A stretch of DNA of 43,583 nt from Torpedo marmorata (taxonomy: Eukaryota). The stretch is from the NCBI GenBank assembly GCA_977017645.1, contig OZ360238.1, forward strand, positions 43,462,001 through 43,505,583, in the 5' to 3' direction. The position numbers were made by a program, and so were the translations under genes. Below are positions 2,470-38,397 of this stretch, one piece after another. Position 1 is the stretch's first letter. Each line of letters begins with the position of its first letter. The notes beneath the pieces are model-generated. The model made no database searches, was not told the DNA's origin, and was given only the letters and a program-made list of their open reading frames with translations.

Positions 2470-2776
2470 TTATAGATGAGAGGTTAAATTGAGGTCCCAT
2501 CAGCCTGTAAGGGTCAATATAAAAGACGCCGAGGCATTATTCAATAATAAAAAAGCATGAAAATTCTCTCCATTGTCCTGACCAATACTTGCCCCTCACC
2601 AAAACTAATAAATGATAAAAACAAATTTTTGATCATTTTCCCATTGTTTTCATGGGATCTTGCTGAAGGAAAAATCCTAGTGGATTTTTTATATAATAAT
2701 GTTAACTAAACTGTAAAAGAAGTTGTTTTCTTGTAATTGTGCTTTGGGAAGTCCTGAGATTATAACGTGCTCTATC
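2470..2776 (+). mobile_element. DeuSINE (SacSINE1/AmnSINE-like), degraded
   Basis: Deu-domain-like gatgagaggttaaattgaggtccc...gtcctgaccaatacttgcccctca...tgggatcttgctg and tail gctttgggaagtcctgag. Confidence 0.65.
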
Positions 2777-3125
2777 CATCCAATTTATAATTCATCTATC
2801 TTTTGTTCTCTCTTCTTTATTACATTATAGTTTTATACTCTGACTGGCTCTCACAATGAAATAGAATGCCATATCTCTGCACTTTCTCTTAGAAGCCTTC
2901 CACCAACACTGTCATGTGCCTCTAGAAAAGATCTAGAGCTGAAATGAAAGTCGATTGAATTGAAAACACCTGAAGGGCATCATGAAGGTTTCAGCTAAGA
3001 AAACTCGTCCCACAAAGAAATCAGGTTTAGTATCAAATTCTGAACTAGATTTTTACATCTCAAGCCAGATCACAGACAAAACCTTAAGTCCTAGATTGTT
3101 TAATCACAGCATGTAAATTATATAT

Positions 3126-3891
3126 CAGCTCGTTGAATGGTGTAATGACAACAACCTTGAGCTCAACGTCAGCAAAACCAAAGAGATGATTGTGGACTTC
3201 AGGAGGAAGTCAGGGGAACACGACCTAGTCCTCATCGAGGGCTCAGTAGTGGAGAGGGTCAAGAACTTCAAATTCCTGGGTGTCAACATCTCCGAGGATC
3301 TGTCCTGGAGCATCCACGTTGATGCAATCACAAAGAAGGTTCGTTAGCGGCTATGCTTTGTGAGGTGTCTGCGGAGATTCGGTATGTCACCGAAGACTCT
3401 CGTAAACTTCTACAGGTGTACCGTGGAGAGCATTCTGGCTGGTTGCATCACTGCCTGGTATGGAGGCGCCAACTCTCAGGACAAGAATAAACTCCAGAGG
3501 GTTGTTAATTTGGCCTGTGACATCACAGGCACCAAACTTCACTCCATCGAGGACATCTACATGAGGCGGTGTCTTAAAAAAGCAGCCTCTATCCTCAAAG
3601 ACCCCCACCACCCAGGCCATGCCCTCTTCACTCTGCTTCCATCGGAAAAAAGGTACAGGAGCCGAAAGACGAGCACTCAATGGCACAAGGACAGCTTCTT
3701 CCCCGTTGCCATCAGATTCCTGAATAATCAATGAACCAAAGACACTGCCTTACTTTTCGTGCACTATTATTTATAATTTTTATAGTAATGTCGTAAGATG
3801 GTTAATATGAATGTTAATTGCACTATGATGCTGCCGCAAAACACCGAATTTCATGACTTGTTCATGACAATAAATTTTGATTCTGATTCTG
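3126..3891 (+). mobile_element. Rex1/Babar LINE, 5'-truncated
   Basis: ORF 3360-3734 ([32 protein letters not shown]...SFFPVAIRFLN); aataaa then a (gattct)n tail; flanked by atatat at 3120-3125 and 3892-3897; near-identical to 30743-32451. Confidence 0.92.
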
Positions 3892-3962
3892 ATATATTGA
3901 GGAACCAATGAAAAACAGAATACTTTTGATCCAGGATTGTGTAATTAATAAGGGAAGAGTGA

Positions 3963-4482
3963 TCATTGTGTTTAGTTCTGGTCACCTCATTACAGGAAAG
4001 ATGTGGATGCTGTAGAGAGAATTCAGAGGAGATTTACAAGGATGTAACCTGGAATGCAGAGCATGCCTTACGAGGATAGGTTGAGTGAACTGGTCTTTTC
4101 TCTTTGGAGTGATGGTGGATAAGGCCTGATAGAGGTGTACAAGATGATGAGAGGCACTGATTTTGTAGATGGCCAGATGGTTTTTCCCAAGGCTGAAATG
4201 GCTAACACAAGGGGGCATAGTTTTAAGGTGATTGGGAGTAAGTACAGGGGGGATGTAAGAGGTAAGTTCTTCACACAGAGAATGGTGGGTGCATGGAATG
4301 CACTGCTGGCAACGGTAGTGGAGGCAGATACAAAAGGATCTTTTAAAAGATGATTACATAGGTAATGGAACTGAGAAAAATGGAGAGTTATGCAGTAGGA
4401 CAATTCTTGGCAGTTAGAGTAGGTTATCAGATCGGCACAACATTGTGGGCCGAAGAGCCTGTATAGTCTTTATATTTCTATG
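3963..4482 (+). mobile_element. CR1 LINE 3' fragment
   Basis: ttctggtcacctcattacagg...; ORF 4135-4353 NTRGHSFKV...FFTQRMVGAWNAL; gggccgaagagcctgta 3' motif. Confidence 0.9.
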
Positions 4483-4550
4483 AGCAATGTTTTATTATAT
4501 TATACAACTTATTATAAAGATGGAATGTGATTTAGTTCAATCTGAAGGAA

Positions 4551-4850
4551 GGGGCGGCACAGTTTGCGTAGCGGTTAGCGCAATGTCTTTACAGCGCCAG
4601 CGATCGGGACTGGGATTCGAATCCCGTGCTGTCTGTAAGGAGTTTGTACGTTCTCCCCATGTCTGAGTGGGTGTTCTCTGGGGACTCCGGTTTCCTCCAA
4701 CCATTCGAAACGTACCGGGGGTGTAGGTTAATTGAGTTTAAATTGGGCAGCACAGACTCGTGGGCCAAAATGGTCTGTTACCGTACTGTACATCTAAATT
4801 TAAAATTTAAAAAGTTACATCTAAATTTAAATTTAAAATTTAAAATTTAA
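4551..4850 (+). mobile_element. tRNA-derived V-SINE (HE1-like)
   Basis: A-box-like tagcggttagcg, B-box-like gattcgaatcc, V-domain ctgtctgtaaggagtttgtacgttctcccc, CR1-like 3' end, AT-rich tail. Confidence 0.88.
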
Positions 4851-4984
4851 GGGTCTTGAATCAAAGTAAACTACAGATGCAGACAACATGAATTGGCAAT
4901 GATAGACTCCAAATTATATCATACAGTATGCAAACAATGATTAACATTTAAAGAGTTTTCCATAGTTTACAGAAGTGCCAACAC

Positions 4985-6590
4985 AAATTTATGAAAAGGA
5001 AATCTCGTTTGTCAAATCTGTTAGTATCTTTTGTGGTTGTAACTAATAGGATAGATAAGGAGGAACCAATAGTTATTGTGTATTTGAATTTTCAAATATT
5101 TTTTGGCAGGTGCTAAACAAGATTTATTAAATAATGTTATTCATGGAATTAAGGTGTTATATGAACTGGTTAAACAAGGGCAAACGGAGAGTGTGGATGA
5201 ATGGGTAATTTTGGGTTGGGAAGCTGTAACTAGTCATATACACAGGGATCATTGCTGAGTCTCCAGCTGTTCACAATCTATAGCAACGTTTGAATGAAGC
5301 GAGTAGATGTAACATATTCATGTTTGCAAATGTTACATAGCTGGGGACAAGGATACAGAGAAGCTTCAGGGGGATGTAGACAGGCTAATTCAAGATTCAA
5401 GATTCAAGATTCAATTTATTGTCATAGTAATAAAACAGTGTCATATTCCATGAAATTTCTTTTTGCCTGCTGCAAGGCAGACAGATTCGCCACTGGAAGA
5501 AATTGCCTAAGCGCCTCTTACATTCCTTACAGTCAGAGAAAGAGAAGCAAAAGAGAGTCCCCCCCCCCCCAGAGTCACCGAGTGTCCGTAGATTCGCCTC
5601 CAGCGCTTCCGCAGCCTCTGCAGCCACACAGAGTCCAGTCCAAACCATCGGCAACCCGAGCTCCAGATCCGAACCTCCGACACGGTCAGGAACCCTTCGG
5701 CGCCCTCGGCTCCACCTCGCATCCCGGTTCCGATACCTGGTACTCCTCCAGCCAGTTCGAGCCAGCCTCCTGCAGTCCGCAGCCCAGCGTGAGTCCCCTG
5801 ACAGCAGTCTCCAGCAGCCCACAGCCTCCGCGGGTTCCTCGCCTCGAGTCGCCAGCAGCCCGCCGCATGCACTGGTCCTTCAGCCTCAGAGCCCCTCACT
5901 GGTCCGCCGCCGTGGTCACCGTCCCGTGGGTCGTCTCCTTCGCTTCTCCTTCTCAGACGGGGGTGATCTTTCCGTCCTCTGGTGCCCTGCTCCAGTCCCC
6001 CGCTTCCCTGGAGTCTGCAGCCCCTCGTGGCTGCTGCCAATTAATTGGCGCTGCCATCTTGGGCGCAGACCCCGCGGTCGTGGGATCTCAAATAAAACCA
6101 CTGTCGGCTCCCTCAACGGGCCGTTCAAAAATTGAATGGGTGACAAATGGAAAAATGGAATAAAGAATAGAAAATGTGAAATAATCCACTGTTGTTGAAA
6201 AAAGTAAAAATCAATTATTTTTTAATGGTGACCGATTGAAAGTTGTTGGTGTTCTGAGCACCCTGGATAACCTTCTACAAGAAATACTAAATGTTAATGT
6301 TGAGGTACAGCAAGCAATCAGGAACCCAAATGTAAAGTTCCTTTACATTACAAAAATTTCTTCACCAGAAGTCAGTGATTTTTTAAAAAATTCTCTGCCC
6401 AAGAGAGCTGGGTAGTCTCAGTTGCTAAGTATTTGCAAGACAAAGATTGGATGTTAAGGGAATCAAGAGATTTTGGATCAGTCAAGGAAAGTGTTGTAAC
6501 TGTAAAAAATCAGTTATGATCTTATTAAATGCAGGAGCTCATGGGAAGGACTAATAGAATCTGTTCCTGCCTCTATTTTGAGCATATGTC
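4985..6590 (+). mobile_element. Old degraded CR1 RT region, split by the insertion at 5391-6129
   Basis: aaaggaaatctcgtttgtcaaatctgttag...gtgtatttgaattttcaa resembles KGKSCLTNLL...VYLDFQ; resumes at gaatggg...aaatgtgaaataatccac (W...KCEIIH) after 6130. Confidence 0.7.
5391..6129 (-). mobile_element. GC-rich non-autonomous retroposon with Rex-like 3' tail
   Basis: Minus strand ends atgacaataaatt(gaatctt)n; aagatggcagcg near the 5' end; aatt flanks at 5387-5390 and 6130-6133; homologous copy at 27100-27420; no RT-like ORF. Confidence 0.8.
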
Positions 6591-7415
6591 CTTATTTCAA
6601 TTGATTATGTTCATTCAGATTTGAATTTAGCTTTTAAGGTTAAGTCAATTCCTGTGTACTGTGCTGTTGGTCTCTCTCCTATGCTCATCCTCTTGATTTT
6701 TTCCTATTTAATCACCTTCACTCATTCTTATTTTACTCTCAGATGCAATGAAATAAGGTCATGTCTAGTGTACGTTTTGGTTAGGTTGCTTCAGTTCTAT
6801 GATTCCACAATGGGAGCATGGAAAACTGGATTTCTCTTAGGGGCAGCATAAATTCAATGGGCCAAATGTCCTTCCATACCATAATAATTCTATAATACTA
6901 TGATTTAGTTTTATATCATACTGGATAGGAAGTCTGCAAGACTTTGAAAACTACTCTGAATTTCCTTTGTCTTGTATTTTCCTGATCTGCAGAACTTGTC
7001 CAACTCTAATAATATGTGCCTAAACTGTTATTAATAACTTTTATCATTGTCTTTTGCAATGCTAGGAGTTGAGATATGTCCAGAGTGAACTTTCTGAAGT
7101 CCTTTTCAGGAATCATTTTCTCTGACTGTGAGTTTATTACTTTCCCCTCTTTCATACTGAGAGAAAATCTTGTTCTCCCTCTTCCCTCTCAAACATGGTG
7201 CTAATGGTCCTTTCTTTGCGCCATTCCTTGTCACATGGAGCACTTGACAATGACCCAGGGTTCTAGGATGCATTGGAACTTTACCACATTCAACATGGGT
7301 CCTATTTCTAGGTTTCTCTCCTGTTATTTCTGGAAGTAGAATATGGGGAGGGGAGGGGGGGGTGTTATTCCCAAATTGGCTATGATGCCTTCTTGCATTT
7401 CCCCACCCACAGTTG

Positions 7416-7656
7416 CAGCCATTCTCAACAGGGGCCTTACCCCCCACCCCCCACCCCCCACCCCCGGGGACAGCAGCACATTAAAGGGAGGACACAGACT
7501 GAAATCATAAAATATTTTTTATGTTTTCTATGTAGTTGGTAGGAGAGAAGTACAGAAGAAACCAACTAAACTTGACTGCTTCACAGGGAAGGGGGCCCAT
7601 AAATTTTGAGCAGTCCTAAGGAGACCATAGCCACAAAAAAAGGTTGAGAATGGCTG
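7416..7656. mobile_element. MITE, hAT/Charlie-like
   Basis: Perfect 14-bp TIRs cagccattctcaac / gttgagaatggctg; the 8-bp flanks do not match, so no TSD is confirmed. Confidence 0.7.
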
Positions 7657-8100
7657 TTTTAAAGGTATCATATGGGCTTCCTTTGTTATTTCTTGAGAGG
7701 TTCGCAGCAGAGCTGATTTCATTATTCCTTCTTTGCAAAGATGTTTCTTTGCATGAAACATGGGTTGGAAGTTACCATTGCTCCATGATAATTTTGGCTG
7801 CAATGCATGGAAAAGTAAATCAATGGATCAGTGAATTCACAACCCATACCCTGTGGGAATGCATTGGAAAGACCCAATAGTGAAATTGGCCTTTGTCTGT
7901 CCAGAATAAATGTTTCACTGATTGTTTATTCATAGTTTAGATCTCATTTCTCAAAAAGCTTATAATCCCACAGTACATTCACATGATATTTTGCCATACA
8001 GTGATGAATGTTCAGCCGGAGCTGTAATAGAATGCACAAGGTTGCTCCCTACTTCTTGTTTTCATTAATTCAACTCGTCTTTTGACAGATGTGTGTCCAT

Positions 8101-8716
8101 AGGCCCTTTTATAGTGAAAATTAGCGATTTGTTAAGACAGGTTTCCTCTGCCTTTAAATCGCTCCACTTACCTCCATAGAAGGTCCAGAGGAGGATTGGC
8201 TGGTCCAACTAGCTCCTCGTTCCTTCCGCCTAGGGTGGTAGTGTTAGAGGTGGAACAAAGTACCTCCACCTCCTCCGTAAAAGGATTGCCGCTGAAAGTC
8301 GCTCAAAAGGGGAGGGCTGATGATGTCGCGATGACGTCGTCAGCCCACGACCAAAGAGCATGAATTTTAAAGAACCCATATGGTCAAAAAGGGCAATTAT
8401 GTTGCACAGAAGATCTGCCTGAGTCCTAAGACTGCTTGCACAGATCTCCACTAGCGCTCGTACGTGCTCTTCAGTTGCCATTTTGAGTATAGGCCACTTT
8501 CCCTTCCCGGCGCGTATGTTTCACATCACGGTGGCGGGCGGCGCTACTGCACTACTCGACCCGCCTCCTTCAGCTTCGGAAGCCGGCTCTCGAATTACCC
8601 TGCATAAAAGCACTGCGCGATCCACATTTTCCGTCGTCAGCATAAAAGGTAAATTCGCCTTTTTTAAAAAAAAACTTGAGCAGCCGATAACGCGGTTTTT
8701 GAGCATAAAAACCCCT
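8101..8716. mobile_element. Probable Harbinger/PIF-derived non-autonomous element
   Basis: CpG-rich block; imperfect TIRs aggccctttta / taaaaacccct; repeated gcataaaa subterminal motifs; termini resemble the MITEs at 21662 and 26325. Confidence 0.4.
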
Positions 8717-11700
8717 AAGGTATGAAAGAAGTATCTTTCCAATTTAATCCATTGAGGTTTTCTACTTTCTCCCCTCATTATCATTTCACTGAATAAAGAC
8801 GTGTTCTCAAATTCCTCACCCTGTAACAATACCAATCCTCAGTTTCTGCTTTTGTCCACACCCAAAGCAATTCTACCTCTTTCAATCATTTTATCCTCTC
8901 ACCACACAGAACTTGAATTCATGTTGTTGGCAACAGTAAATGAAACCATTATGCGCGCATATCAGTCTGCATTTCTACTCTTTGTGGATCATGGAGTCAC
9001 TGCTTTCTGTCATCTGATTGTTTTCAGACTCTCTCATATAATTTTCCAGAATCTTTGGATGATTCATCTGAAACAGATCATCTCTGTTGTACAATGGTTG
9101 AATGGGATTGTACTAAAATAGATTTAGGCATACTAACGCAAAGAGAACATCATTTGTAATTGCTTCTCTGAGAGTTTCTACCATCCCCCCTTGCTTAATC
9201 TATTTTCCCCAAAACTATCCCCACCAGACCTCAAAGTCTCAATTATAATTAACGCACACAAACACATCTAGCATCACACCATTCCCTCCCTCAACGTCCC
9301 CTACCACTCCCCACCCTTGACCCCTTTGCATTCCAATAAATGACTATTTGGAGAAGGTCAACAAAGGCTAGGAGATCAGATCATTTGGGGAGAAACTGGT
9401 TCTTGTAGCTGTGCACTCAATGACAAGGAATAAAGAGAGAAAATAGAATAACGAGGGAGAGGAGAAATAACATCTTGATGTTGGGTTAGACATGAATGCT
9501 TTGTTGCAGGAAGTGGTGGAGGCAGAGCCATTCCTCCTCTCAATTGAAGAATGGGTATGTTTGAATTAAAGGATTAGTAGAACAGAGACGGACAAATCAG
9601 GGTAGTAGAATTAGCTTTGCAAAGGACAAACATGAAATTGAAAGTGGACTCATTCTGTGATTATGTGTTAATAGTTTGAACAACATAACCTAAGAGCTAA
9701 CAGTGCAAGGTGTGGTCTCAACCACATTGCTTGAATTTTGTCTTTGATACACCATTGTTGTCCCATTGTTTATTGAACAAGGTTAAATTCTATTTATATT
9801 TCTGCATATTTTCTTACCCTTTGCATTTTGTGGTGTAACTCAAAAGTTGCAAAACTAAATGTTTTTAAAGAAAAGTTCCCATGTACGTGCCTTCAAATTA
9901 AAATTAAAACATGTATATGCACAATCTTTGACGTGGAACATTTTGTCAAAATGATTTGGCTTTATCATTTCAACCTCAAATTTATTAGAAACATTTTCCA
10001 AGTATTCACCACAGGTAGAGTGCCACATTTCTCCTTGAATTTGTTTTAACTCAGATGACATGACAGGAAAGATTTGCAGCTTTGAAAGACCATTGATTCC
10101 ATAAGCCAAAGATTGCAATCAACAGTCTGATTTAATTAACAAAGGTCCCTAACAAAGTGTAATACAGACTATTTTATGACAGTTAGAATCTCTTATTTCC
10201 CTGAAAAGTTTGGTGGAATTTAAATGACCCCTTTCCTGCCTTTTCGGAACAGTGCGGAGATGGATTATTATGCACACGCAAATGGAAATTTGTACTGAAA
10301 GGAAATTGCACATAGACTCAAATGAATAATCAAAGTTGTTAGATTACGTGCAAAGAAAACAGAAGGTCATTTCCCCACTCTCCTCCATTTCAAAACTGAT
10401 ATTTTTACGTCAGTAGTGATTAGGTATTAACATTTGAAGTCAGTGTTTGTGTGAAGTTGCTGTATTAGTTTCACTTATAACGATGTACTAAAATTCCATT
10501 TACTCTCTCACCAATATCTGAAATTGATATATTAAGCCTTGCAAGCTAATTTTTTAAAAATATTTTATTTAAAATTTTAAATCACATGATAATACATGTT
10601 TATAAAATACAAAATTATCAGAATACATGTGAAATATTTTCACCCTCCCCTCCCTCCCTTACCCCTCCCTAACCCACCCACCCCTACTACTCTAATAATA
10701 TAGAAAGAAAGAAAAAAAAGAATAGATTTTTTTTTATTGTGGAACACAGGTTCGCCAGTCAGACCTGATACCGAGAGATCCTCAAATCCTTAAACCCACA
10801 ATCTTTATATATGGGCTCCATAAGAAATTATATTTATTACGTAAATTATAAGTTTTTTTTTTAAGTGGTATACATGAACGAAGTTCTGCATGCCATCTTT
10901 CTCACCCTAAATCTACATCAGACTTCCATGTAATAGCAATGCATTTCTTTGAAACAGCCAAAGCAATTCGCAAAAATTCTATTTGATACATATTTAATCT
11001 CATTTTAATACTAATTTGTTTAATATCTCCAAACAAAAATATCATAGGATTCATTGGGAGTGTAATTCTTAATACTTTGTCTAAAAACTTATTAACTTTC
11101 AGCCAAAAAGCATGTATCTTTGGACAAAGCCACGTAGAATGTACAAAAGAGCCTTCCTCTCTATTACATCTAAAACATAAATCTGATAATCTCGAGTTAA
11201 ATGTCTTTAGTTTCTTAGGCGTTAAATATAATTGATGCAAAAAGTTGTATTGCACTAACCTATATCTAACATTAATAATTTTCCTCATACTTTGTTTACA
11301 TATTTCTTTCCAATGTTCTTCATCGATTGTTATGTTCAAATCTGATTCCCATTTTAATCTTGATTTATGAATTCCTGGTTTAGGCATTTTTTTCTGTAAC
11401 AATCTATACATTTGAGAAATAAATTTATTTATACCCACATTAGTAACTAATAATTCCAATTCACTTTGTCTTGGTAAAATTAAACTATGACCTAACTTTT
11501 CAACTAAAAATGTTCTTATTTGATAATAAGCAAAAAGTGTATCATTTAATACATTAAACTTCTCTTTCATTCTTTGAAAAGTAATACATTTACTAGCTTC
11601 AAAACAATCATTCACTTTGTTAATCCCTTTTTGAAACCAAATTTTAACAATTGATTATCAATAGTAAATGGGATAAGTTTATTTTGATATAAAGGCATTT

Positions 11701-12011
11701 TACAAGAAATTAACCCTTTCCCTCCTATCTCCCCATCCACTTTATTCCATATTTCTAACAAATGTTTTAAAATAAGAGAATATTTACCTCCCCTTAATAG
11801 TAATTTAGATTTCCATTTATAAATAACATCTTCTTTTGATTCCTCTCCTATATTATTTAATTCTATTCTATTCCAAGCAGAAAATTTTTCTGAATCAAAC
11901 ATTTCATGAATGAATTTTAATTGAGCTGCCTTATAATAATTTTGAAAATTGGGAAGTTGTTAACCACCCATTTCATAATTCCAAGTTAATTTCTCCATAG
12001 CTACTCTGGCC

Positions 12012-14539
12012 CACCCTCCAACTCCCCCCTCTGACCTCCCCAACCCTCTCCCTCCCCCCAACACCCTCCACAACACCGATCCCCACTCTAACCCCTGCTT
12101 TGTTTTTACCATCCCCTCCGACCTTCCCCTCTCTGAGACGGAGCGCTCGGTCCTCAGTAGAGGCCTCACCTTCCTCCCCCTCCACCAACACCTCAACGAG
12201 TTCAGCGCACGCCGTGATGCCGAACTCTTCTTCTGTCGCCTCCACCTCCGGGCTGACTTCCATGACCGTGACTCTCCACCCCCCACCCAAGACCCTTTCT
12301 CCCACTTCAAGCCTTCTTCCTCTTCCTGGACACCTCGCCCTGGCCAGCTGACCGCTCTGGACCTTTTTATTTCCAACTGCCGCCGAGACATCAACCGTCT
12401 CAACTTCACCACCCCCCTCTCGTATTCCAACCTCACCTCCTCAGAACGCTCTGCCCTCCACTCTCTCCCCAACAATCCCAACCTAACCATCAAACCCGCA
12501 GACAAGGGCGGTGCGGTTATGGTCTGGCGCACTGACCTCTACCTTGCCGAGGCCAGTCGACAGCTCTCAGACACCTCCTCCTACCGACCCCTCCCACAGG
12601 ACCCCACCACTACACATCAAGCCACTGTCTCCAACACCCTCTCTGACCTCATCACCTGCGGTCACCTCCCCTCCACGGCCACCAACCTCATTCTCCCCCA
12701 CCCCCGCACTGCCCGTTTCTACCTTCTACCCAAGATACACAAACCAACCATCCGGGCAGACCCATTGTTTCTGCCTGCTCCTGCCCCACTGAACTAGTTT
12801 CATCTTACCTTGACTCCATCTTTTCTCCCCTGGTCCAATCCCTCCCCACCTACATCCGCGACACCTCACATGCCCTCCATCTCCTCAATGACTTCAGATT
12901 CCCTGAACCGGACCGCATCATCTTCACCATGGATGTCCAATCCCTTTATACCTCTATCCCCCACACGGAAGGACTGAAAGCACTTCGCTTCTTCCTGGAC
13001 CAAAGACCCGACCCGTCACCCTCTACCACCACCCTCCTCCGCCTGGCAGAACTTGTCCTCACTCTCAATAACTTCTCCTTGAACTCATCCCACTTCCTCC
13101 AAATCAAAGGAGTAGCCAAGGGTATCCGCATGGGTCCCAGCTACACCTGCCTGTTTATGGGCTTTGTGGAGCAATCAATGCTGCAAGCCTACACAGGCAA
13201 GACCCCTCATCTCTTCCTCCGTTATATCGATGACTACATCGGGGCTGCCTCATGCACCCGCGATGAGCTTGTCAACTTCATCCACTTCGCATCCAACTTC
13301 CACCACGATCTCAAACTCACCTGGTACATCTCCAATAACACTCTCCCCTTCCTGGACCTCTCTGTCTCCATCTCAGGAGACAAGCTTTCCACCGACATTT
13401 ACTACAAACCCTCCAACTCCCACAACTATCTGGACTACACTTCCTCACACCCTGACGCCTGCAAGGATTCCATCCCCTTCTCTCAATTTCTCCGTCTCCG
13501 CCGCATCTGTTCCCAAGATGAGGTGTTCCAGTCCAGATCTTCTGAAATGTCTGCCTTCTTCCACAAACGTGGCTTCCCCTCCACCACCATCAACTCAGCC
13601 CTCACCCGCATCCCCTCCATTTCCCGCTCATCTGCCCTGGCCCCCTCTGCCCCCAGACACAACAAAAATAGAATCCCCCTCATCTTCACCTACCACCCCA
13701 CCAGCCTCCGCATCCAACACATTATCCACCAGAAATTCCGGCACCTACTACAGGTTACCACCACCAGACACATTTTTCATTTTTCATTCTCCTCCCCTCT
13801 CGGCCTTCCGTAGGGACCTCTCCCACCGCGATTCCCTCGTGCACTCATCCCTCCCCACCCATCGCAACCCCGGCACCTTCCCCTGTGCCCACAGGAGGTG
13901 CAACACCTGCGCCCACACCACCCCCCTCACCATGGTCCGGGGCCCCAAACAGGCCTTCCAAGTGAAACTACACTTCACTTGTACATCCAGAGAAATTATT
14001 TACTGCATCCAGTCCTCCCTCTGTGGCTTTCTCTACATTGGAGAGACCGGTCGTAGATTGGGAGATCGCTTTGATGAGCACCTCCTCTCCGTCCGCAACA
14101 ACAGCGACCTCCCATTAGCCAACCATTTCAATTCCGGGTCACAGTCCCACACTCACAGTGCTGTCCATGGCCTTATGTACTATCCCACCCAGACTACCCG
14201 CATATTGGAGGAACAACATCTCATTTTCCGTCTGGGCACTCTCCAGTCAGATGGCATTAACATTGACTTTTCTGCTTTCCACTAAACCTGCTTGTCGTTT
14301 CCTTCCCCTCCCCCCTCACATGTCCTTCCTGTTTTTTTCCAACCCCCCAGCCATCCCTCCTCCCCCTCTTTGCTGCTGTCCCCTCCCTCCTTTCTCCACC
14401 TATCTCCTGCCTTGCCACCCCCCCTTCCCCCCTCACTCTTTTGTTCGGACGCCTGCCGGCATTTTCTCATACTTTGATGAAGGGCTACATAAAAGACACT
14501 GTTTGACCTGCTGAGTTTCTCCAGTATTTGTGTTTTTCA
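12012..14539 (+). mobile_element. Penelope-like element (RT + GIY-YIG), 5'-truncated, inside L1 ORF2
   Basis: IKPADKGGAV, MDVQSLYTSIPH, MGPSY, FLRYIDD, LPFLDL, and IIYCI..LCGFLYIGETGRRLGDRF.EH; splits L1 KGKLA|RVAMEKL; flanks ctggcc / ctagcc. Confidence 0.95.
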
Positions 14540-15130
14540 CTAGCCAACTTTCCCTTCCACAAAAAATTCCTAATAATTAAATTTAAATCCTTAAAGAATT
14601 TTTGAGGAATTTCATAAGGAATTGATTGAAAAAGGTATTGAATTCTTGGAAAAACATTCATTTTGATACAATTTACCCTTCCTATTAAAGTTATAGGTAA
14701 ATCTTTCCAACTCTCTAAATCCTTTTTAATATTAGGAAATAATGGTAAATGATTTAATTTATATAAATTACCTAATTTTGTATCTATTTTTATTCCCAAA
14801 TATTTAATTCCATTATTTGACCATTTAAATCGTGTAATTTCTTTACATTTATTATAGTCTCCTTATATCAATGTCATAATTTCACTTTTATCAGAATTAA
14901 TCTTATAACCAGATATTTCCCCATATTCTCTCAATAAAACAGTCAATTGTGTTAAAGAATTAATAGTTTTGTCATGTAAATCAACACATCAACTGCAAAT
15001 AAACTAATTTTATGTTCTTCTTTTCCAACTTTAATACCTACAATCTTAATATCTTGTCTAATTAATTCTGCTAAAGGTTCTATTGCTAAAATAAACAATG
15101 CTGACGAAAAAGGACATCCTTGTCTAGTTG

Positions 15131-15301
15131 TTCCGACGCCTGCCGGCATTTTCTCATACTTTGATGAAGGGCTCAAGCCCGAAACGTCGGTTATGTATTT
15201 CTACCTTTGCTACATAAAAGACACTGTTTGACCTGCTGAGTTTCTCCAGCATTTGTGTTTTTTACTTCAACCACGGTGTCTACAGATTTTCGTGTTTTAT
15301 T
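15131..15301 (+). mobile_element. Penelope 3'-terminal (pLTR) fragment inside L1 ORF2
   Basis: Near-identical to 38118-38286; perfect 14-bp TSD tccttgtctagttg at 15117-15130 and 15302-15315. Confidence 0.92.
15156..15198 (+). ncRNA. Minimal hammerhead-ribozyme-like motif
   Basis: uUGAUGA-a-GGGC(ucaa)GCCC-GAAAC(gucg)GUU with short AUAC/GUAU stem I; non-canonical U3. Confidence 0.5.
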
Positions 15302-16387
15302 TCCTTGTCTAGTTGAACTAGTCAACAAAAATTTTGAAGAAATTTGTCCATTTGTCACCACCCTGGCAGAGGGTTCTTTATATATAGTTTTAATCCAATT
15401 AATAAATGTAGTTTCAAAACCAAATTTTTCTAACACTTTAAATAAATAATTCCATTCTAATCTATCAAAAGCCTTTTCGGCATCTAATGTTAATACTAGT
15501 GCTAATTCCTCTTTCTTTTGTGCCACATTTATTAAACTAATCAATCTGGCAATATTATCCTTTGAATATCTATTCTTAATAAAACCCACTTGATCTGCAT
15601 GAATGAAATCTGGTAAATATTTTGCCACTCTGTTTGCTAAAATTTTTGCCATTATCTTATAATCCACATTTAACAATGAAATTGGTCTATATGATTCTGC
15701 TTTCAACAAATCGCTATCTTTTTTAGGTATAACTTATTATTGCATTTGAAAATGTTTCCGGTAGAGAATGAGATTCCGTTATTTGTTTTAACACCTCCAT
15801 ATATGGAGGTATCAATAAATCTTTAAATTCCTTTTAAAATTCTGATGGAAAACCATTCTCCCCTGGAGACTTTCCACTTGTTAAGGAACTAAGAGCATCA
15901 TTAACTTGTCTCATTGTAAATGATGCATCTAAAAATGTTTTACTTTGGGTATTTAATCTAGGTAACTTGATTTTAGATAAAAATTCATTAATTTTAGAGT
16001 CATCTTTATCGGTTTGAGATTTATATAAATTTAAATAAAATTCCTTAAATTAATCATTTATTTCTCGAGGTTTATATGTTATTTTCTTTGAATTCTTTTT
16101 ATAGCACTTATAGTTTGAGAAATTTGTTCTTTCTTTAGTTTCCATGCTAACACTTTATGAGCTCTTTCTCCCAATTCATAATATCTTTGCTAAGTTCTTT
16201 CAATTAATTTTTCCATTTTATATGTTTGTAACATATTATAATGGAATTTTTTTCTCAATTAAATGGCGTGATGGCATAGGTTGGAGACATGGGAATACAC
16301 CTCTCCCTACAGAATTAATCAAAAACTGTACAAAAAAAAATTATTTAAATACTAAAGAAGTTAAGATTGTTTGTTAACTACTGAAGA

Positions 16388-18782
16388 ATGTCTATAAGAA
16401 AAGGGAAAGAACAAAAGTCAAAGAAAATAGTGCTTAAAGAAAGTCTAATTCAAGAAGAAGTTTGGCCTACCTTAGTGATGGAGCTGCGGGATCAAGTTTC
16501 TCTCCCTCCCAGGATGATGCGGAAGATGATGGCAAAGGTAACTGCAGCACCAGCGCCACCTTCCCGGGGAGCTGGGGAAGATGGTGCTGGAGCTCGAAGG
16601 AAGACTAAGGAACTACAACGGGAGAGTGAATGACCGTGCACGCACGAAATGAAGCGCATGCGCGAAAAAGAACGGGAGCTGTCAATGTTAGTTGACAGCA
16701 AAAGAAGAGTCCTTCAATCATTTCAATATGATGCTGGACAAGAATTGTCATCATCAACGGAATCAGAGGATAAAAGGAGAGAGAAAGAAATATATGAAGA
16801 AGTGGAGGGAGAAACAGAAGAGATGGAGGGAGAGGAAGAAGAATTAAGTGGAGGAGAGGTAGCTCAAATACTTCAAGGTAAACAAGAAATATCAGCTACT
16901 TTTATTCAACCTATGGATAAATTAACAAAACAAGTGTCAATAATGAATCAACGCATGGAATATAGATTTAATGAAGTTCAGGAAGAAATGAAAGATATTA
17001 AACATGATATGAAAAAATATACAAATACTGTGGACAAAGTAATATTGAAAGTCCAGAAAATTGAAAAGGATGTTAAAGAAAAAGAACATTATGAAGAAAT
17101 GGTGGACTGTAAAGATAGAGAGGACAAAGTGGAAGACTCATTTACAGGTTGGGAGCAACAAAGAAATGAACTTTTACAAAAAATAGATACATTGGAGAAT
17201 CAGAGTCGGAGAAATAATGTTAAAATTGTGGGATTGCCCGAAGGTTATGAAGGGATAAATTCAACTGAATCCTTTCAAAATTGGATTCCAAAAATTTTGT
17301 GTAGTGAATATTTTCCAAAGGGACTTGAATTAGATAGAGCCCATAGAGATAACAGAAGGAAACCATATCCTGGACAAATGCCACGCTCAGTTACCAGGAT
17401 AAAGAGAAGATACTGAGATTAGCTGTTCTAAATTCTAGAAAGAATCAGGGTCCATTGATGATCAATAAAAATAGGATATATTTTTAGTTGAAAGGTTGGG
17501 TTATGGTTTGACTTTACCAAGACAAAGCGAATTGGAATTATTAGTTATTAATGGAGGTGTAAATAAATTTATTTCTCAAATGTATAGATTATTACAGAGA
17601 AAAATGCCTTAAAGTAGGAATTCACAAATCAAGATTAAAATGGGAATCAGATTTGAACGTAACAATAGATGAAGAACATTGGAAGGAATTATGTAAATTA
17701 AGTATGACAAAGATTATTAATGTCAGATATAGACTAGTGCAATATAATTTTTTTCATCAATTATATTTAACACCTAAAAAATTAAAGAAATTTAATCCGA
17801 CATTATCTGGTTTATGTTTTAGATGTAATAGAGAGGAAGGTTCTTTTGTACATTCTACATGGCTTTGTCCAAAGGTATATGATTTCTGGTTGAAAGTTAA
17901 AAAGTTTTTAGATAAAGTATTAAGAATTACTCTCCCAATGGATCCTATGATATTTTTATTTGGAGATATTAAAAGAATTAGTACCAAGATGAAATTAAAT
18001 ATGTATCAAATAGAATTTTTGCGAATTGCTTTAGCTGTTTCTAAGAAATGTATTGCTATTACATGGAAATCTGATGTAGATTTAGGGTTAGATAGATGGC
18101 ATGCAGAACTTCGTTCAGCTATACCACTTGAAAAAATTACTTATAATTTACACAATAAATATAATTTCTTTTTGAAAATATGGAGCCCATATATAAAAAC
18201 GGTTGGTTTAAGGATTTGAAGATCTCTGGATATCAGATCTCACTGATGAACCAATTTTACTAGATTAGTAGGGGTGGGAGGGTTAGGGAGGGGAGGGAGG
18301 GTGGGGAGGAGAAAATGTATCACATATATTTTGATAATTTTGCATTTTATACAGTGTATTGTGTGATTTAAAAATTTTAAATAAAATATTTTAAAAAAAA
18401 TAAATTAAAATAGGATATTTTTTATGCTGATCTAAACACAGCAATAATTAAAAAACGAAAAGAATTTAACCCAGCCAAAGCAATTTTTTGGAACAAAGGA
18501 TATGAATTTTCATTTAGATATCCTGCGATATTGAAGGTACAGTCGGGAGAGAATCAGTCATCTTTTTTTACTGATCATCAAGAAGCTTTGAAGTATGCAA
18601 ATTCACTCCTAAATTTAAAGAAAGATCAAGAATTGATTGGGCAACCTCAAGTTATTATGGAACCGACTCGGGACTTGTTTCCATCAAGAGAGAAATTTCA
18701 AGTAACTTCAGGACAAGAAGATGTAGTTGAAATAGATGATGATCAAGTTAACAGAGATCTGGAAAATGCTGGATTGGAATGA
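16388..18782 (+). pseudogene. L1 ORF1 (Transposase_22-like), disrupted and interrupted
   Basis: Coiled coil, then LENQSRRNNVKIVGLPEG, LELDRAHR; continues after the insertion as IFFYADL...RKEF...RYPAILKV. Confidence 0.9.
17480..18406 (+). mobile_element. 5'-truncated L1 3' end nested in ORF1
   Basis: ORF 17653-18219 closely matches the ORF2 C-terminus at 10902-11615; 12-bp TSD aaaataggatat at 17468-17479 and 18407-18418; A-rich tail. Confidence 0.92.
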
Positions 18783-19089
18783 AGAAACAATAACAAATGT
18801 TATGTAAAATCTGTATGGGGTGGGGGGGGGGTGGACTTTTTGTCTTCTCTGCACCTAACCACACGTCATCTTAGTGGAGAGGGCCACTTCCCAAACAGTA
18901 GAGGGTGGTAGTACTGGTATAAATATACCAGTATTATTATTTTTTCTCTTTTTAAAAAAAATATAGTGGGATTTTTTACTTTTTAAATTTATTTATTTTC
19001 TTTCCTTTCTAAGGAGATGTCAAATATATTACAAATGTGGAAGGGGGAACCAGTCAGTCGGATAGAGAGAGATTTATTAAATACTAGAA

Positions 19090-20050
19090 ATGGCGGATAG
19101 TAAATCAATAAATTTAGTAAGTATCAATATAAATGGGCTAAATAATCCGATTAAAAGGAAGAAAACTTTAGCATATATTAAAAAATTAAAAGTTGATATA
19201 GCTTTTTTACAAAAGACACATTTGACAGAAATAGAACATCAGAAGTTGAAAAGAGAATGGGTTGGTCAAGTGGTAGTGTCTTCATTTAATTCTAAAGCAA
19301 AAGGAGTTGCTATATTAATTAATAAAAAGTTACCTTTTAAAATACAATCTGTGGTTATAGATGTTGCAGGAAGATTTGTTTTAATAAATTGTCAAATATA
19401 TTCAGAAATGTGGACACTTATGAATATATATGTACCAAATATGGAAGATGAACAATTTATTCAAGACTCTTTTATGCACTTGTCAGAAGCAAATGATAAT
19501 ATTTTAATTGGTGGAGATTTTAATTTTAGTTTAGATCCAATAATGGATAAAACATCAGAATCAATTATCAGAACTAAAACTGCTAAAAGAATTCTTACTT
19601 TGATGAAAGATTTGAATTTAATAGATATTTGGAGGAAGTTGAATCCAAAAGAAAAATACTATTCCTTTTACTCTTTTAGACATGATTCTTATTCTAGAAT
19701 AGACATGTTTTTATTGTCATCACAATTAGAAGAGAGGGTGACTCAAGTGCAATATAAAGATAGAATAATTTCTGATCATTCACCTCTTTTAATGTCATGT
19801 ATAATTCCAGAAAAAGAAAAAATGATATATAGATGGAGATTTAATTCTTCCTTATTGAAAAGAATGGATTTTTGTAATTATATAAGAAGAGAAATTCAAG
19901 ATTTTTTACAGATTAATTCTAATTCGACTAATAATATATTTATTATTTGGGAAGTTTTAAAGGCTTATTTAAGAGGTCAAATAATAAGTTATTCTGCAAA
20001 AGTTAAGAAGGAATATATTCAGGAATTGGATAATCTGGAGAAGAAGATTG
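19090..20050 (+). pseudogene. L1 ORF2 N-terminus (APE endonuclease), truncated at the inversion point
   Basis: NINGLN, GGDFN, SRID, SDH and WRFN motifs; LQETH is mutated to LQKTH; the ORF runs into flanking DNA to 20148. Confidence 0.93.
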
Positions 20051-20391
20051 AGCCTTGCAAACTAATTGTGTTGTGTATTTTCTCTGACAATATGTGTTTA
20101 GATGTTACACTACTTTTTTTTCACTTTACATTCTTCCTGTTAATGTAAGGGTGTTTTGCTATTGAATGGAATACTTTCCATTTTGGACTTCCTCTATTAA
20201 TGTCAAGTGATACCAGGTAGCAGTTATAATCAGTGGAAAGCTTTCTCTGCTCAGCCTCCATCCACCTTCAAAATAACCCTTTCTACTGCATCCATTATCA
20301 ATTTTGTGTTTTCCATCATCCTTGAATTCATGTTCATTCGTACTAAATTAGGAGGTGGTTTTTGAAAATTGATCGATGCAGAGGGAAATAA

Positions 20392-30400: not shown

Positions 30401-30742
30401 GTGATCAATGCCTGAAATGATCCGCGTTCGGTCTCCAGAGAACATCTCGCTCAATAATGTGTTTTTATTACCATCGAATGCTCAACTTGATAAAAGTTAA
30501 GTATCCAAGCTGCAGATATCATTTTTTTCGTGGTTATTTGGTGTTCTCATCGAGATTAAGGCGACCAGTGGTGGTAAAGAGGGAAAATTAACACGAAAGT
30601 GGCCAAAGAAATTCATTAAAATATAAAACAAATCTTTATTTTGGAGAATTACAGCGTGGTCCTGCAGCAAGGTTGAACCTGGCGACAGTGGGGGATGCAA
30701 GAACTGCTTACTCAACATTCCTATCAAGATTATAACCAATAT

Positions 30743-32451
30743 CAGAATCAGAATTTATTGTCATGAACAAGTCATGAAATTCGGTGTTTTGCGGCAGCAT
30801 CATAGTGCAATTAACATTCATATTAACCATCTTACGACATTACTAGAAAAAATAAAAATAATAGTGCACGAAAAGTAAGGCAGTGTCTTTGGTTCATTGA
30901 TTATTCAGGAATCTGATGGCAGCGGGGAAGAAGCTGTCCTTGTGCAGTTGAGTGCTCGTCTTTAGGCTCCTGTAATTTTTTCCCGATGGAAGCAGAGTGA
31001 AGAGGGCATGGCCTGGGTGGTGGGGGTCTTTGAGGATAGTGGCTGCTTTTTTAAGACACCGCCTCATGTTGATGTCCTCGATGGAGAGAAGTTTGGTGCC
31101 TGTGATGTCACAGGCCGAGTAAACAACCCTCTGGAGTTTACTCTTGTCCTGAGAGTTGGCACCTCCATACCAGGCAGTGATGCAACCAGCCAGAATGCTC
31201 TCCACGGTACACCTGTAGAAGTTTACGAGAGTCTTCGGTGACATACCGAATCTCCGCAGACACCTCACAAAGTATAGCCACTGACGAGCCTTCTTTGTGA
31301 TTGCATCAACATGGATGCTCCAGGACAGATCCTCGGAGATGTTGACACCCAGGAATTTGAAGTTCTTGACCCTCTCCACTACTGAGCCCTCGATGAGGAC
31401 TGGGTCATGTTCCCCTGACTTCCTCCTGAAGTCCACAATCATCTCCTTGGTTTTGCTGACGTTGAGCTCAAGGTTGTTGCCATTACACCATTCAACGAGT
31501 TGATCTATCGCCCTCCTGTACACTTCCTCATTGCCGTTTGTGATTCTGCCGACAACTGTGGTGTCATCGGCAAACTTGTCGATGGCATTGGAATTATGCC
31601 TGGCCACACAGTCATGGGTGTATAATGAGTAGAGCAGTGGACTAAGCACGCATCCTTGGGGTGCGCCTGTGTTGATAATCAGTGAGGAGGAGACGTTGTT
31701 TCCAATTCGTACTGACTGTGGTCTTCCGGTGAGAAAGTCAAGGATCCAGTTGCAGAGTGGGGTACAGAGGCCTAGAGTTTGTAGCTTCTTGACCAGCACT
31801 GAGGGAATGATGGTATTGAAGGCCGAGCTGTAGTCGATAAAGAGCAGTCGTATGTATGAATTGCTGTTTTCGAGGTGATCCAGAGCTGAGTGGAGAGCCA
31901 GCAATATTGCATCTGCTGTGGAGTGATTGTGACGATAGGCGAATTGCAGTGGTTCCAGATCTTTGCTTAGCTACATGTTAATTCTGGCCACGACCAGCCT
32001 CTCTAAGCATTTAATCACAGTAGAAGTTAGTGCTACTGGGCGGTAGTCGTTGAGGCAGCCCACACTACTCTTCTTGGGTACCGGGATGATTGATGCCCTT
32101 TTGAAGCAGGTGGGAACCTCTGACTGCCGCAATGAGAGGTTGAGAATGTCCGTGAACACTCCGGCTAGTTGGTTGGAGCAGATTTTCAGTACCCTGGCAG
32201 GTACGCCCTCAGGGCCTGACGCCTTGCGAGGGTTCACCCTCTTGAATGATGTTCTGACGTCGCCCTCAGAGACAGATATCACAGTGTCCTCAGCCTTTTC
32301 AGGGATTCTAGTAGGCACTGTTTTGTTCTCCTTCTCGAAACGGGCATAGAAGGTGTTCAGCTCATCGGGTAGTGAAGCCTCACCACCGTCTATAGTGTTC
32401 GCCCTCGCTTTGTAGACTGTGATGGCCTGCACTCCCTGCCATAGCTGGCGT
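30743..32451 (-). mobile_element. Rex1/Babar LINE, 5'-truncated, RT nearly intact
   Basis: [42 protein letters not shown]; one in-frame stop at 31971-31973; (gattct)n tail; aatat flanks at 30738-30742 and 32452-32456. Confidence 0.95.
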
Positions 32452-35300: not shown

Positions 35301-36585
35301 AAGTTAAAAAAAATAGTGCTGTATACAAACAAACACACCACCAACACACAACATACCAACAAATAACTACGTGCGAATAAAAACAAGCGCATTCAGCAAG
35401 CAAACAATTATAAAAGTACTGGCAGTACAATGTGAGTGCAGTACCATTTATCCCTTCGATTATAACAAGAAACTAAATAACAGGGCAACGTTGGGCGGGA
35501 GTACTCCAATGTTTAAAGATCGGCAAAAATAAAACTCAATACTGCGAAGGGTAAATCGGATGCACGGGTTGCAGCGTGGATTTAAAAGATTACTTGTTAA
35601 ATCAAAGTTAATGTATTCATACATGGACAATGACACTAATGACTATTCATAGGCTTAATTGCGGCAACTGGATTTGCGCGGTGTTCGCACAGTGAGGAAA
35701 TGTAATCGGACCATCAAACCCGCAGACAAGGGCGGTGCGGTTGTGGTCTGGCGCACTGACCTCTACCTTGCCGAGGCCAGTCGACAGCTCTCAGACACCT
35801 CCTCCTACCGACCCCTCCCACAGGACCCCACCACTGCACATCAAGCCACTGTCTCCAACACCATCTCCGACCTCATCACTCTGGTCACTTCCCTTTCACG
35901 GCCGCCAACCTCATTCTCCCCCACCCCCGCACTGCCCTTCTACCTTCTACCCAAGATACACAAACCCAACTATCTGGGCAGACCCATTGTTTCTGCCTGC
36001 TCCTGCCCCACCGAACTAGTTTAATCTTATCTTGACTCCATCTTTTCTCCCCTGGTCCAATCCCTCCCCATCAACATCCGCAACACCTCACATGCCCTCC
36101 ATCTCCTCAATGACTTTAGATTCCCTGAACTGGACCGCATAATCTTCACCATGGATGTCCAATCCCCTTATACCTCTATCCCCCACACAGAAGGTCTGAA
36201 AGCACTTCACTTCTTCCTGGACCAAAGACCCGACCAGTCACCCTCTACCACCACCCTCCTCCACATGGCAGAACTTATCCTCACTCTCAATAACTTCTCC
36301 TTCAACTCATCCCACTTTCTCCAAATCAAAGGAGTATCCATAGGTACCCGCATGGGTCCCAGCTACGCTTGCCTGTTTGTGGGCTTTGTGGAGCAATCCA
36401 TGCTGCAAGCCTACACAGGCAAGACCCCTCATCTCTTCCTCCGTTATATCAATGACTACATCGGGGCTGCCTCATGCACCCGCGATGAGCTTGTCAACTT
36501 CATCCACTTCGCATCCAACTTCCACCACGATCTCAAACTCAACTGGTCCATCTCCGATAACACTCTCCCCTTCCTGGATCTCTCT

Positions 36586-37056
36586 TTTTTTAAAAAATAT
36601 TTTATTTAAATTTTAAAATCACAGATTACATAAAATAATTTTGCATATATTTCAAAGAAAAATACATGTGATTTACATTTTCTCCCCCCCTTCCCACCCT
36701 CCCCACCCTCCCCACCCTCCCTCCCCACCCTAACCCTTATATCCCCACTACTCTAAAAATAATAATATAGTAAAGAGAAAAGAAAAAAGAAAGATAGAAA
36801 AATAGAATGAGGAGACAACAAACTTAAAACTAATTTACCTTAGAGGTTATTTTCGCCAGTGGATCTGATATCCAGAGAGTTTACATTGTTAAACCCATAA
36901 TCCTCATATATGGGCCCCAAATTTTCAAAAAAGAATGATATTTATTTCGCAAATTATAAGTAATTTTTTCTAAAGGTATACATGAACGTAACTCTGCATG
37001 CCATCGTTCTAAATTTAAATCCACATCCGACTTCCAAGTAATAGCTATACACTTTA
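36586..37056 (-). mobile_element. L1 3' end nested in Penelope RT
   Basis: KCIAITWKSDVDL...IPLEKITYNLR; perfect 15-bp TSD ttcctggatctctct at 36571-36585 and 37057-37071. Confidence 0.93.
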
Positions 37057-38142
37057 TTCCTGGATCTCTCTGTCTCCATCTCAGGAGACAAGCTTTCCAC
37101 TGACATTTACTACAAACCCTCCAACTCCCACAACTATCTGGACTACACTTCCTCACACCCTGTCCCCTGCAAGGATTCCATCCCCTTCTCTCAATTTCTC
37201 TGTCTCCGCCACATCTGTTCCCAAGATTAGATGTTCCAGTCCAGATCTTCTGAAATGTCTGCCTTTTTCCACAAATGTGGCTTCCCCTCCACCACCATCA
37301 ACTCAGCCCTCACCCGCATCTCCTCCATTTCCCACTCACCTGCCCTGGCCCCCTCTGCCCCCAGACGCAACAAACATAGAATCCCCCTCATCCTCACCTA
37401 CCACCCCACCAGCCTCCACATCCAACACATTATCCGCCAGAATTTCCGGCACTTACTACAGGATCCCACCACCAGACACATTTTTCCTTCTCCTCCCCTC
37501 TCGGCCTTCCACAGGGACCGCTCCCTCCGCGATTCCCTTGTGCACTCATCCCTCCCCACCCATCGCACCCGCGGCACCTTCGCCCACACCTCCCCACTCA
37601 CCATGGTCCGGGGCCCCAAACAGGCCTTCCAAGTGAAACTACACTTCACTTGTACATCCAGAGAACTTATTTACTGCATCCGGCGCTCCCTTTGTGGCTT
37701 TCTCCATATCGAAGAGACCGGTCGTAGATTGGGAGATCGCTTTGCTGAGCACCTCCTCTCTGTCCGCAACAACAGCGACCTCCCAGTAGCCAACCATTTC
37801 AATTCTGGGTCACAGTCCCACACTCACATGTCTGTCCATGGCCTTATGTACTATCCAACCCAGACTACCCGCAAATTGGAGGAACAACATCTAATTTTCC
37901 GTCTGGGCACTCTCCAGCCAGATGGCATTAACATTGACTTTTCTGCTTTCCACTAAACCTGCTTGTCGTTTCCTTCCCCTCCCCTCACCTGTCCTTCCTG
38001 TTTTTTTGCACCCTCCCAGCCATCCCTCCTCCCCCTCTTTGCTGCTGTCCCCTCCCTCCTTTCTCCACCTGTCTTCTCCTGCCTTTGCCACCCCCCCCTT
38101 CCCCCCTCACTCTTTTGTTCGGACGCCTGCTGGCATTTTCTC

Positions 38143-38185
38143 ATACTTTGATGAAGGGCTCAAGCCCGAAACGTCGGTTATGTAT
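38143..38185 (+). ncRNA. Minimal hammerhead-ribozyme-like motif in Penelope 3' end
   Basis: Same motif as 15156-15198. Confidence 0.5.
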
Positions 38186-38397
38186 TTCTACCTTTGCTAC
38201 ATAAAATACACTGTTTGACCTGCTGAGTTTCTCCAGCATTTGTGTTTTTTACTTCAACCACGGTGTCTATAGATTTTCGTGTTTTACTAATGTAATCGGA
38301 CACCAATTCAGCGTGTTATGCATGGTGGTATTGACACCTCGCCTTGAGGTAAAGCTATCAAGATGTATCTTACGTTTTGGGTTGGGTGGTGGGGAAG

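What the first reader, a model, noticed from the sequence alone, without database searches (positions are those of the whole stretch)
10535..20067. Two apparent back-to-back L1s are one element with a twin-priming-type inversion reaching the 5' end
Seen: a 17-bp TSD (16/17) brackets the whole 9.5 kb. The plus arm holds the 5' UTR (aaatggcg at 16261), ORF1 and EN, ending at ...ELDNLEKKI. The minus arm starts near 16255 with ...YNMLQTYKMEKLIERT*QRYYELGERAHKVLAW, the ORF2 segment shortly downstream, and runs to the A-rich tail. Removing nested inserts leaves about 5.8 kb. Established: the layout TSD-antisense(X to 5')-sense(X to 3')-tail-TSD is the twin-priming product described for mammalian L1. 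Inference: the same mechanism operates in a cartilaginous-fish L1. The inverted arm is unusually long (about 2.85 kb without its insert) and appears complete.
Basis: partly seen in the sequence, partly recalled or inferred. Interest (0 to 1): 0.7.

Follow-up and report, generated by a model that had tools for sequence, protein, structure and literature searches.

The report
Front-flipped L1, common in this genome
Two back-to-back pieces of a dead L1 jumping gene are one insertion whose front half landed backwards, likely because both cut DNA ends copied the same RNA as in human L1; at least one in nine sampled relatives in this fish-like genome show the same flip, so the quirk is likely not special to mammals.

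Summary
Confirmed, with small corrections. A 17-bp target-site duplication (16/17) brackets 10535-20067. Against a natural colinear copy, the plus arm is family positions 8-2819 and the minus arm 2869-end. So 49 nt are lost at the flip and about 7 G-rich nt at the 5' tip; the arm is nearly, not fully, complete. Both arms meet at 16264 and belong to one subfamily. The layout recurs: 20 of 28 head-to-head candidate loci (window included) carry a bracketing TSD, against 1 of 462 mismatched pairs. Among copies picked by their 3' end, 7 of 61 (11%) are TSD-confirmed inversions and 11 of 61 have the layout; published human values are 26-31%. TSD ends match the L1 RNA at the flip point more than chance (P=0.004), although strict microhomology was not enriched (P=0.16). 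Best reading: twin priming, a known mechanism, working routinely in a non-mammalian L1. Arms look longer and gaps larger than in humans (9 of 20 gaps are 282-4566 nt). No empty site was found; read support is one short contig below the tool's threshold. This scan already noted single flipped L1s in this genome and flipped LINEs in other genomes; the frequency was measured here.

The parts
10535..10551 (.). Target-site duplication, copy behind the tail
   Evidence: 16/17 identical to 20051-20067; scored with the same caller as other loci
10552..16264 (-). Non-inverted 3' arm: ORF2 from family position 2869 through RT and C-terminal region, 3' UTR and short A-rich tail; about 2.99 kb without two nested inserts; broken by stops and frameshifts
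   Evidence: 92-98% to the reference copy in 5 pieces; RVT_1 E 7e-23, zf-RVT weak
12015..14539 (+). Nested Penelope-like element (RT plus GIY-YIG-like end); possible imperfect 9-nt TSD (7/9); ends approximate
   Evidence: RVT_1 E 1e-6; GIY-YIG E 0.015, below the curated cut-off; 88-95% to a second copy at 35710-38286; flanks
15131..15301 (+). Nested 171-nt terminal fragment of the same Penelope-like family, with a perfect 14-bp TSD (15117-15130 / 15302-15315)
16264..16264 (.). Inner (head-to-head) junction; one base shared by both arms
   Evidence: both arms' matches to other copies end at 16264; one 78-nt contig of run X1 covers 16214-16293
16264..20052 (+). Inverted 5' arm: family positions 8-2819 (5' UTR, ORF1, spacer, ORF2 endonuclease and linker); about 2.85 kb without the nested L1
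   Evidence: 5' ends of other copies
16388..18782 (+). ORF1 remnant (coiled coil, RRM, CTD type), frameshifted and split by the nested L1; start codon read from the sequence
   Evidence: the ORF1 frame of family copy L052 matches human ORF1p 2yko at E 2e-10; no L1 ORF1 Pfam hit
17486..18406 (+). Nested 5'-truncated L1 of a sister subfamily (family positions about 4844-end, 86-88%), with a 17-18 nt TSD (17468-17485 / 18407-18423)
19090..20052 (+). 5' part of ORF2 (APE endonuclease and linker), cut at the inversion point X
20051..20067 (.). Target-site duplication, copy beside X; its first 2 nt (20051-20052) also fit the L1 sequence

Best explanation
This is one dead L1 insertion whose front 2.8 kb sits backwards inside a single 17-bp target duplication, likely made by twin priming. 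Inferred steps: the endonuclease nicked the first strand beside 20067/10551 and the freed end primed cDNA from the RNA tail up to family position 2869 (about 2.99 kb). The second strand was cut 17-21 nt away; its 3' end paired inside the same RNA at position 2819 and primed a second cDNA that ran almost to the 5' end (position 8). The 49 nt between the two start/stop points were never copied. The two cDNA ends were joined head to head over one shared base and repair finished the job. Three elements inserted later. Shown: layout, TSD, gap, junction bases, common subfamily, recurrence in the family. Inferred: the order of events, a single RNA template, and priming by the target end.
For: TSD 16/17 around the whole unit. 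X and X' 49 nt apart on a 5859-nt map; all 35 fetched copies with this endonuclease end run straight on through the missing 49 nt. Both arms sit among the 26 young copies of 32 colinear ones, 2.5% and 4.1% from the majority against 2.2+/-0.9% and 3.2+/-0.8% for those copies. Same layout with a bracketing TSD in 16 of 22 candidates and 4 of 6 more, against 1 of 462 mismatched pairs. In 15 other inverted copies the last 4 nt of the TSD match the L1 at X in 2.07 positions on average against 1.32 at random (P=0.004; last 6 nt 2.73 vs 1.86, P=0.004). In the window the target end pairs with the RNA at X over 6 positions, 4 standard and 2 G:U (read by hand). Of 20 confirmed loci, 11 have X and X' within 50 nt, 6 as overlaps and 5 as deletions, as described for human twin priming.
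Against: Strict microhomology was not enriched at either junction in 15 copies (outer mean 1.07 vs 0.76, P=0.16; inner 0.80 vs 0.88, P=0.60), whereas human inverted L1s nearly always have it; 3-5% decay weakens this test. The inner junction shares only one base. The first-strand nick site has only two T, a weak match to TTTT/AA. No empty site was found: both flanks are single-copy next to the insertion. The one contig over the inner junction has only 29-30 nt on one side, under the tool's 31-nt rule, has 3 differences and may come from the assembled sample. Trees do not resolve sub-branches inside the young subfamily. Nine of 20 confirmed loci have gaps of 282-4566 nt, which fit one template less neatly.
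Confidence: 0.9

Rival explanations
1. A full-length L1 inserted normally, and its front half was inverted later by DNA break repair.
For: For an arm that reaches the 5' end this gives the same layout, and end-joining also leaves small deletions (49 and 7 nt here) and short shared bases.
Against: One break would have to fall on the TSD edge. That happens at 20 loci of the family, 12 of them with 5'-truncated arms that cannot come from an intact full-length copy by one inversion. Six loci have overlaps (duplicated L1 sequence) at the flip.
Confidence: 0.04
2. Two L1 RNAs were copied at one target site, one from each DNA end, or two separate insertions met head to head.
For: Head-to-head and nested L1s are frequent in the fetched loci. 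Arm divergences differ a little (2.5% vs 4.1%). Nine of 20 loci have gaps of 282-4566 nt.
Against: Independent templates would put X within 50 nt of X' about 2% of the time (100/5859, my estimate), yet 11 of 20 loci do so. The plus arm has no tail and no TSD of its own. The higher divergence of the second region is seen in colinear copies too.
Confidence: 0.04
3. Assembly error joining two repeats.
For: Very high-copy repeat; no long reads seen; only the inner junction was laid against public contigs.
Against: An error would not produce a TSD, adjacent breakpoints, and private TSDs at 19 more loci. A contig of run X1 covers the inner junction (below the 31-nt rule).
Confidence: 0.02

Closest known systems
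5'-inverted (twin-primed) human L1 insertions. Model of Ostertag and Kazazian 2001 (not held), seen as described in PMC2912911 (first 10,000 characters and passages), bioRxiv 10.1101/2021.12.20.472354 (passages) and bioRxiv 10.1101/2024.08.27.596794 (passages)
   Same: TSD - antisense arm starting at X - sense arm - tail - TSD; TSD of about 15 nt; small deletion or duplication at the flip; complementarity between the TSD end and the RNA; a substantial share of copies (26% of 1,271 polymorphic L1s; 30.9% of 2,068).
   Different: Non-mammalian-type L1 family. Human inverted arms are short (median 666 bp, 88% under 1.5 kb; 89% of junctions in the last 2 kb) and gaps small (medians 14.5 and 22 bp in tumours). 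Here the arm is 2.8 kb and reaches position 8; 3 of 8 arms in the 3'-anchored sample exceed 1.5 kb (median 1.27 kb, P=0.06); 9 of 20 gaps are 282-4566 nt. Strict microhomology was not shown.
De novo LINE inserts in HeLa and chicken DT40 cells (PMC4245944, passages)
   Same: Links inversion to TSDs of 10-20 nt; here a TSD was called for 20 of 27 inverted loci with both ends against 9 of 22 plain copies (P=0.02).
   Different: That study saw inversions only with human L1 in human cells, apart from one zebrafish Nimb-2 insert, and concluded that host and element both matter. This genome shows them as a routine product in a non-mammalian host.

Membership tests
L1 clade non-LTR retrotransposon | ORF2 with APE endonuclease followed by RT, homologous to L1 ORF2p | tested here: met
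   Window endonuclease region vs human ORF2p E 4e-43; RT in the other arm; an intact 1273-aa ORF2 of a sister subfamily matches human ORF2p end to end, E 3e-174
L1 clade non-LTR retrotransposon | ORF1 of the coiled coil-RRM-CTD type | tested here: met
   Family copy L052 matches human ORF1p 2yko, E 2e-10. The window's own split ORF1 gave no significant hit
L1 clade non-LTR retrotransposon | A-rich tail and TSDs of about 15 nt | tested here: met
   Short A-rich tails; TSDs of 13-23 nt called in 9 of 22 plain copies
Twin-primed 5'-inverted insertion | One TSD brackets an antisense 5' arm and a sense 3' arm with tail | tested here: met
Twin-primed 5'-inverted insertion | Arms are consecutive parts of one template, with a small gap or overlap | tested here: met
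   Positions 8-2819 and 2869-end, 49-nt gap; same subfamily
Twin-primed 5'-inverted insertion | Complementarity of the TSD end to the RNA at X | tested here: met
   2 shared nt in the window, 6 pairs with two G:U; family-wide excess P=0.004. The stricter measure was not significant
Twin-primed 5'-inverted insertion | Microhomology at the inner junction | tested here: inconclusive
   1 nt in the window; no excess in 15 copies
Twin-primed 5'-inverted insertion | First-strand nick at an L1 endonuclease consensus (TTTT/AA) | tested here: inconclusive
   Only two T at the nick in the window; most TSDs of other loci begin with AA or AG; no formal test
Twin-primed 5'-inverted insertion | Empty site with one TSD copy; inversion present from the moment of insertion | not testable with these tools

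The most novel reading that the evidence does not exclude
Twin priming is an ancestral, routine behaviour of vertebrate L1: this non-mammalian family flips about 11-18% of its copies, and it does so with multi-kilobase second cDNAs that often run to the 5' end and often start far (0.3-4.6 kb) upstream of where the first cDNA stopped, so the second priming event is less tightly coupled to the first than in human L1.
Probability: 0.55. Interest if true: 0.5.

Novelty: new member of a known kind. Interest (0 to 1): 0.38.

Why it matters
5' inversion is described almost only for mammalian L1, and one cell-culture study tied it to human L1 in human cells. A frequency of the same order in a distant vertebrate would make it a general property of L1 with 15-nt staggered cuts. 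Long arms and large gaps give a natural data set for when and where the second DNA end primes. In practice, annotators would count such loci as two elements and overestimate full-length 5' ends: 4 of 37 sampled copies with a 5' end are flipped and dead. The single locus on its own is ordinary.

Tried and rejected
Empty site through paralogous flanks: the left flank has 1 match (itself); the right flank has repeats only from about 300 nt away. Runs X2, X4, X5 hold only short pieces of related repeats and say nothing on this locus. Strict microhomology scoring gave no excess and is fragile to decay. Trees of 630- and 590-nt regions separate subfamilies but not lineages within the young one. Candidates without a called TSD: L096, L048, L056 (arm end apparently interrupted by other elements), L035 (tail not in the fetched DNA), L103, L110, L136 (unclear), L184 (score 10; a 14-nt TSD is visible by eye). 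Weak Pfam hits of ORF1 to EspA, Laminin II and similar families are below cut-off and lie in the coiled coil; rejected. Papers not held: Ostertag and Kazazian 2001, Kojima and Okada 2009, Ichiyanagi et al. 2007. PMC4476161, PMC5389967, PMC3747384, PMC6007223, PMC12350158 and 10.1101/2025.02.02.635956 were searched by term; the passages shown gave no non-mammalian L1 inversion.

Full report
OBSERVATION. The two 17-mers at 10535-10551 and 20051-20067 match at 16 of 17 positions; no other site in the window comes closer than 4 mismatches. The plus strand from 16264 holds an L1 5' UTR, a broken ORF1 and the endonuclease part of ORF2, which matches human ORF2p residues 6-318 at E 4e-43. The minus strand from 16264 to 10552 holds the rest of ORF2 (RVT_1 E 7e-23) and a short A-rich tail. 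Three later insertions interrupt the unit: a Penelope-like element at about 12015-14539, a 171-nt fragment of that family with a 14-bp TSD, and a 0.92-kb L1 3' fragment of a sister subfamily inside ORF1 with its own TSD.

MAP ON THE FAMILY. The genome (6.2 Gb) holds thousands of candidate copies. With one natural colinear, TSD-flanked copy as a ruler (5859 nt), the plus arm is positions 8-2819 and the minus arm 2869-end. All 35 fetched copies with this endonuclease end continue through the 49 nt that the window lacks. Most 5'-complete copies begin with a G-rich 7-8 nt tip that the window lacks, so the arm is nearly complete. Some colinear copies also start a few bases in, so the loss is unremarkable. 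The outer junction shares 2 nt with the TSD and the inner junction 1 nt. Among 32 copies colinear across X, identity to one arm tracks identity to the other (Pearson 0.99, driven by subfamily differences; Spearman 0.55). Both arms fall in the young group, at 2.5% and 4.1% from its majority, within about one standard deviation of the 26 young copies. Lineages inside that group are not resolved.

RECURRENCE. I sampled the best-scoring copies four ways and mapped about 10 kb around each. (a) 3' UTR anchor: 37 of 40 hits fetched (own locus and 2 likely duplicates left out); 8 show the head-to-head layout, 5 with a TSD. (b) Late-ORF2 anchor: 24 of 40 fetched (own, 10 hits of one duplicated cluster, 5 in or near loci already held left out); 3 show the layout, 2 with a called TSD. 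Together 7 of 61 (95% interval 6-22%) are confirmed and 11 of 61 (10-29%) have the layout. (c) 5' anchor: 37 of 40 fetched (own and 2 already held, both colinear, left out); 4 confirmed, 1 more by layout. (d) Endonuclease anchor: 35 of 40 fetched, 33 independent events; 9 confirmed (one through its duplicate in set a), 3 more by layout. Overall 20 of 28 candidate loci, window included, have a TSD score of 12 or more; mismatched pairs reach that in 1 of 462. One locus (L171) was tested against two possible tails. The same caller finds a TSD in only 9 of 22 plain copies, so the confirmed share is a floor. Candidates were picked by eye from the maps, and the samples are top hits, not random draws.

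JUNCTIONS. Of the 20 confirmed loci, 6 overlap at the flip (1-42 nt), 5 lose 3-49 nt and 9 lose 282-4566 nt. Two of the large-gap loci keep an intact 5' tip at the junction, so their gaps are likely primary rather than later deletions (inference). Eight of 20 arms reach within 8 nt of the 5' end: the window, 4 from the 5'-anchored set, 3 of 9 from the endonuclease set, and none of 7 from the 3'-anchored sets. In 15 loci (window left out), the last 4 nt of the TSD match the L1 at X more than random junctions do (2.07 vs 1.32, P=0.004). A stricter exact-overlap measure was not significant at either junction (P=0.16 and 0.60). I ran the strict test first and the softer one second.

READS AND EMPTY SITE. 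One public run (X1) holds 57% of the words of the left flank. Both flanks are single-copy, so no paralogous empty site exists.

MECHANISM. The layout is that of twin priming as described for human L1. Inferred here: first cDNA from the tail to position 2869; second cDNA primed by the other target end at 2819 and run to position 8; head-to-head joining; later nesting. Later inversion, two templates and misassembly are each left at a few percent, mainly because the outer break sits on a TSD edge at 20 loci and X lies within 50 nt of X' in 11 of them.

COMPARISON AND NOVELTY. Human polymorphic L1s are 26% inverted, with 88% of arms under 1.5 kb; human- and chimpanzee-specific L1s are 30.9% inverted. 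A cell-culture study saw inversions only with human L1 in human cells, apart from one Nimb-2 insert. Eight literature searches listed no paper whose title or abstract start reports twin-primed L1 in a non-mammalian vertebrate, but three key papers were not held and two more on zebrafish and vertebrate LINE junctions were seen only as citations; no supplements were read. The host is non-mammalian by inference (several L1 subfamilies, Penelope-like elements, whose absence from mammals is recalled); 'ray or skate' comes only from unchecked earlier notes. Those notes already list single flipped L1s in this genome and flipped RTE, Rex1, Penelope-like and L1/Tx1 copies in others. Verdict: a real, well-formed example of a known mechanism in a new lineage.

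Noticed in passing
window 35710-38286: A second copy of the Penelope-like element (88-95% to 12486-14541), itself interrupted at about 36586-37054 by an antisense 3' fragment of an older L1 subfamily (70% to the reference copy).
   Followed up: partly
window 3120-3887 and 30741-31508: 768-nt inverted pair, 96% alike; the second lies in an RT frame with an ALKBH8_N-like end, likely two young copies of another LINE.
   Followed up: no
window 41772-42273: Tandem array of seven 72-nt units, 85% matches.
   Followed up: no
G000:C25 about 202.7-205.3 Mb (L044, L054, L055, L127 and further hits): One inverted L1 with nested inserts recurs about ten times within 2.6 Mb, so it has been multiplied by segmental duplication.
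   Followed up: partly
L092 (G000:C1:124913640-124923540), 3165-4472: A TSD-bounded insertion made only of the first 466 nt of L1, flipped, and the last 825 nt: a 4.6-kb internal gap with an intact 5' tip.
   Followed up: partly
L132 85-3903 (minus): An open 1273-aa L1 ORF2 frame and a 461-aa ORF1 frame of a sister subfamily (76% to the window), so that subfamily may be younger.
   Followed up: partly
L031-L197: L1 copies of this family are very often interrupted by other L1 copies; nesting preference was not tested.
   Followed up: no
L037 (G000:C59:49674100-49684000), 2575-8538: TSD-bounded inversion with a 3' arm of only about 65 nt and an inverted arm of 3.3 kb, the reverse of the usual human proportions.
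   Followed up: partly
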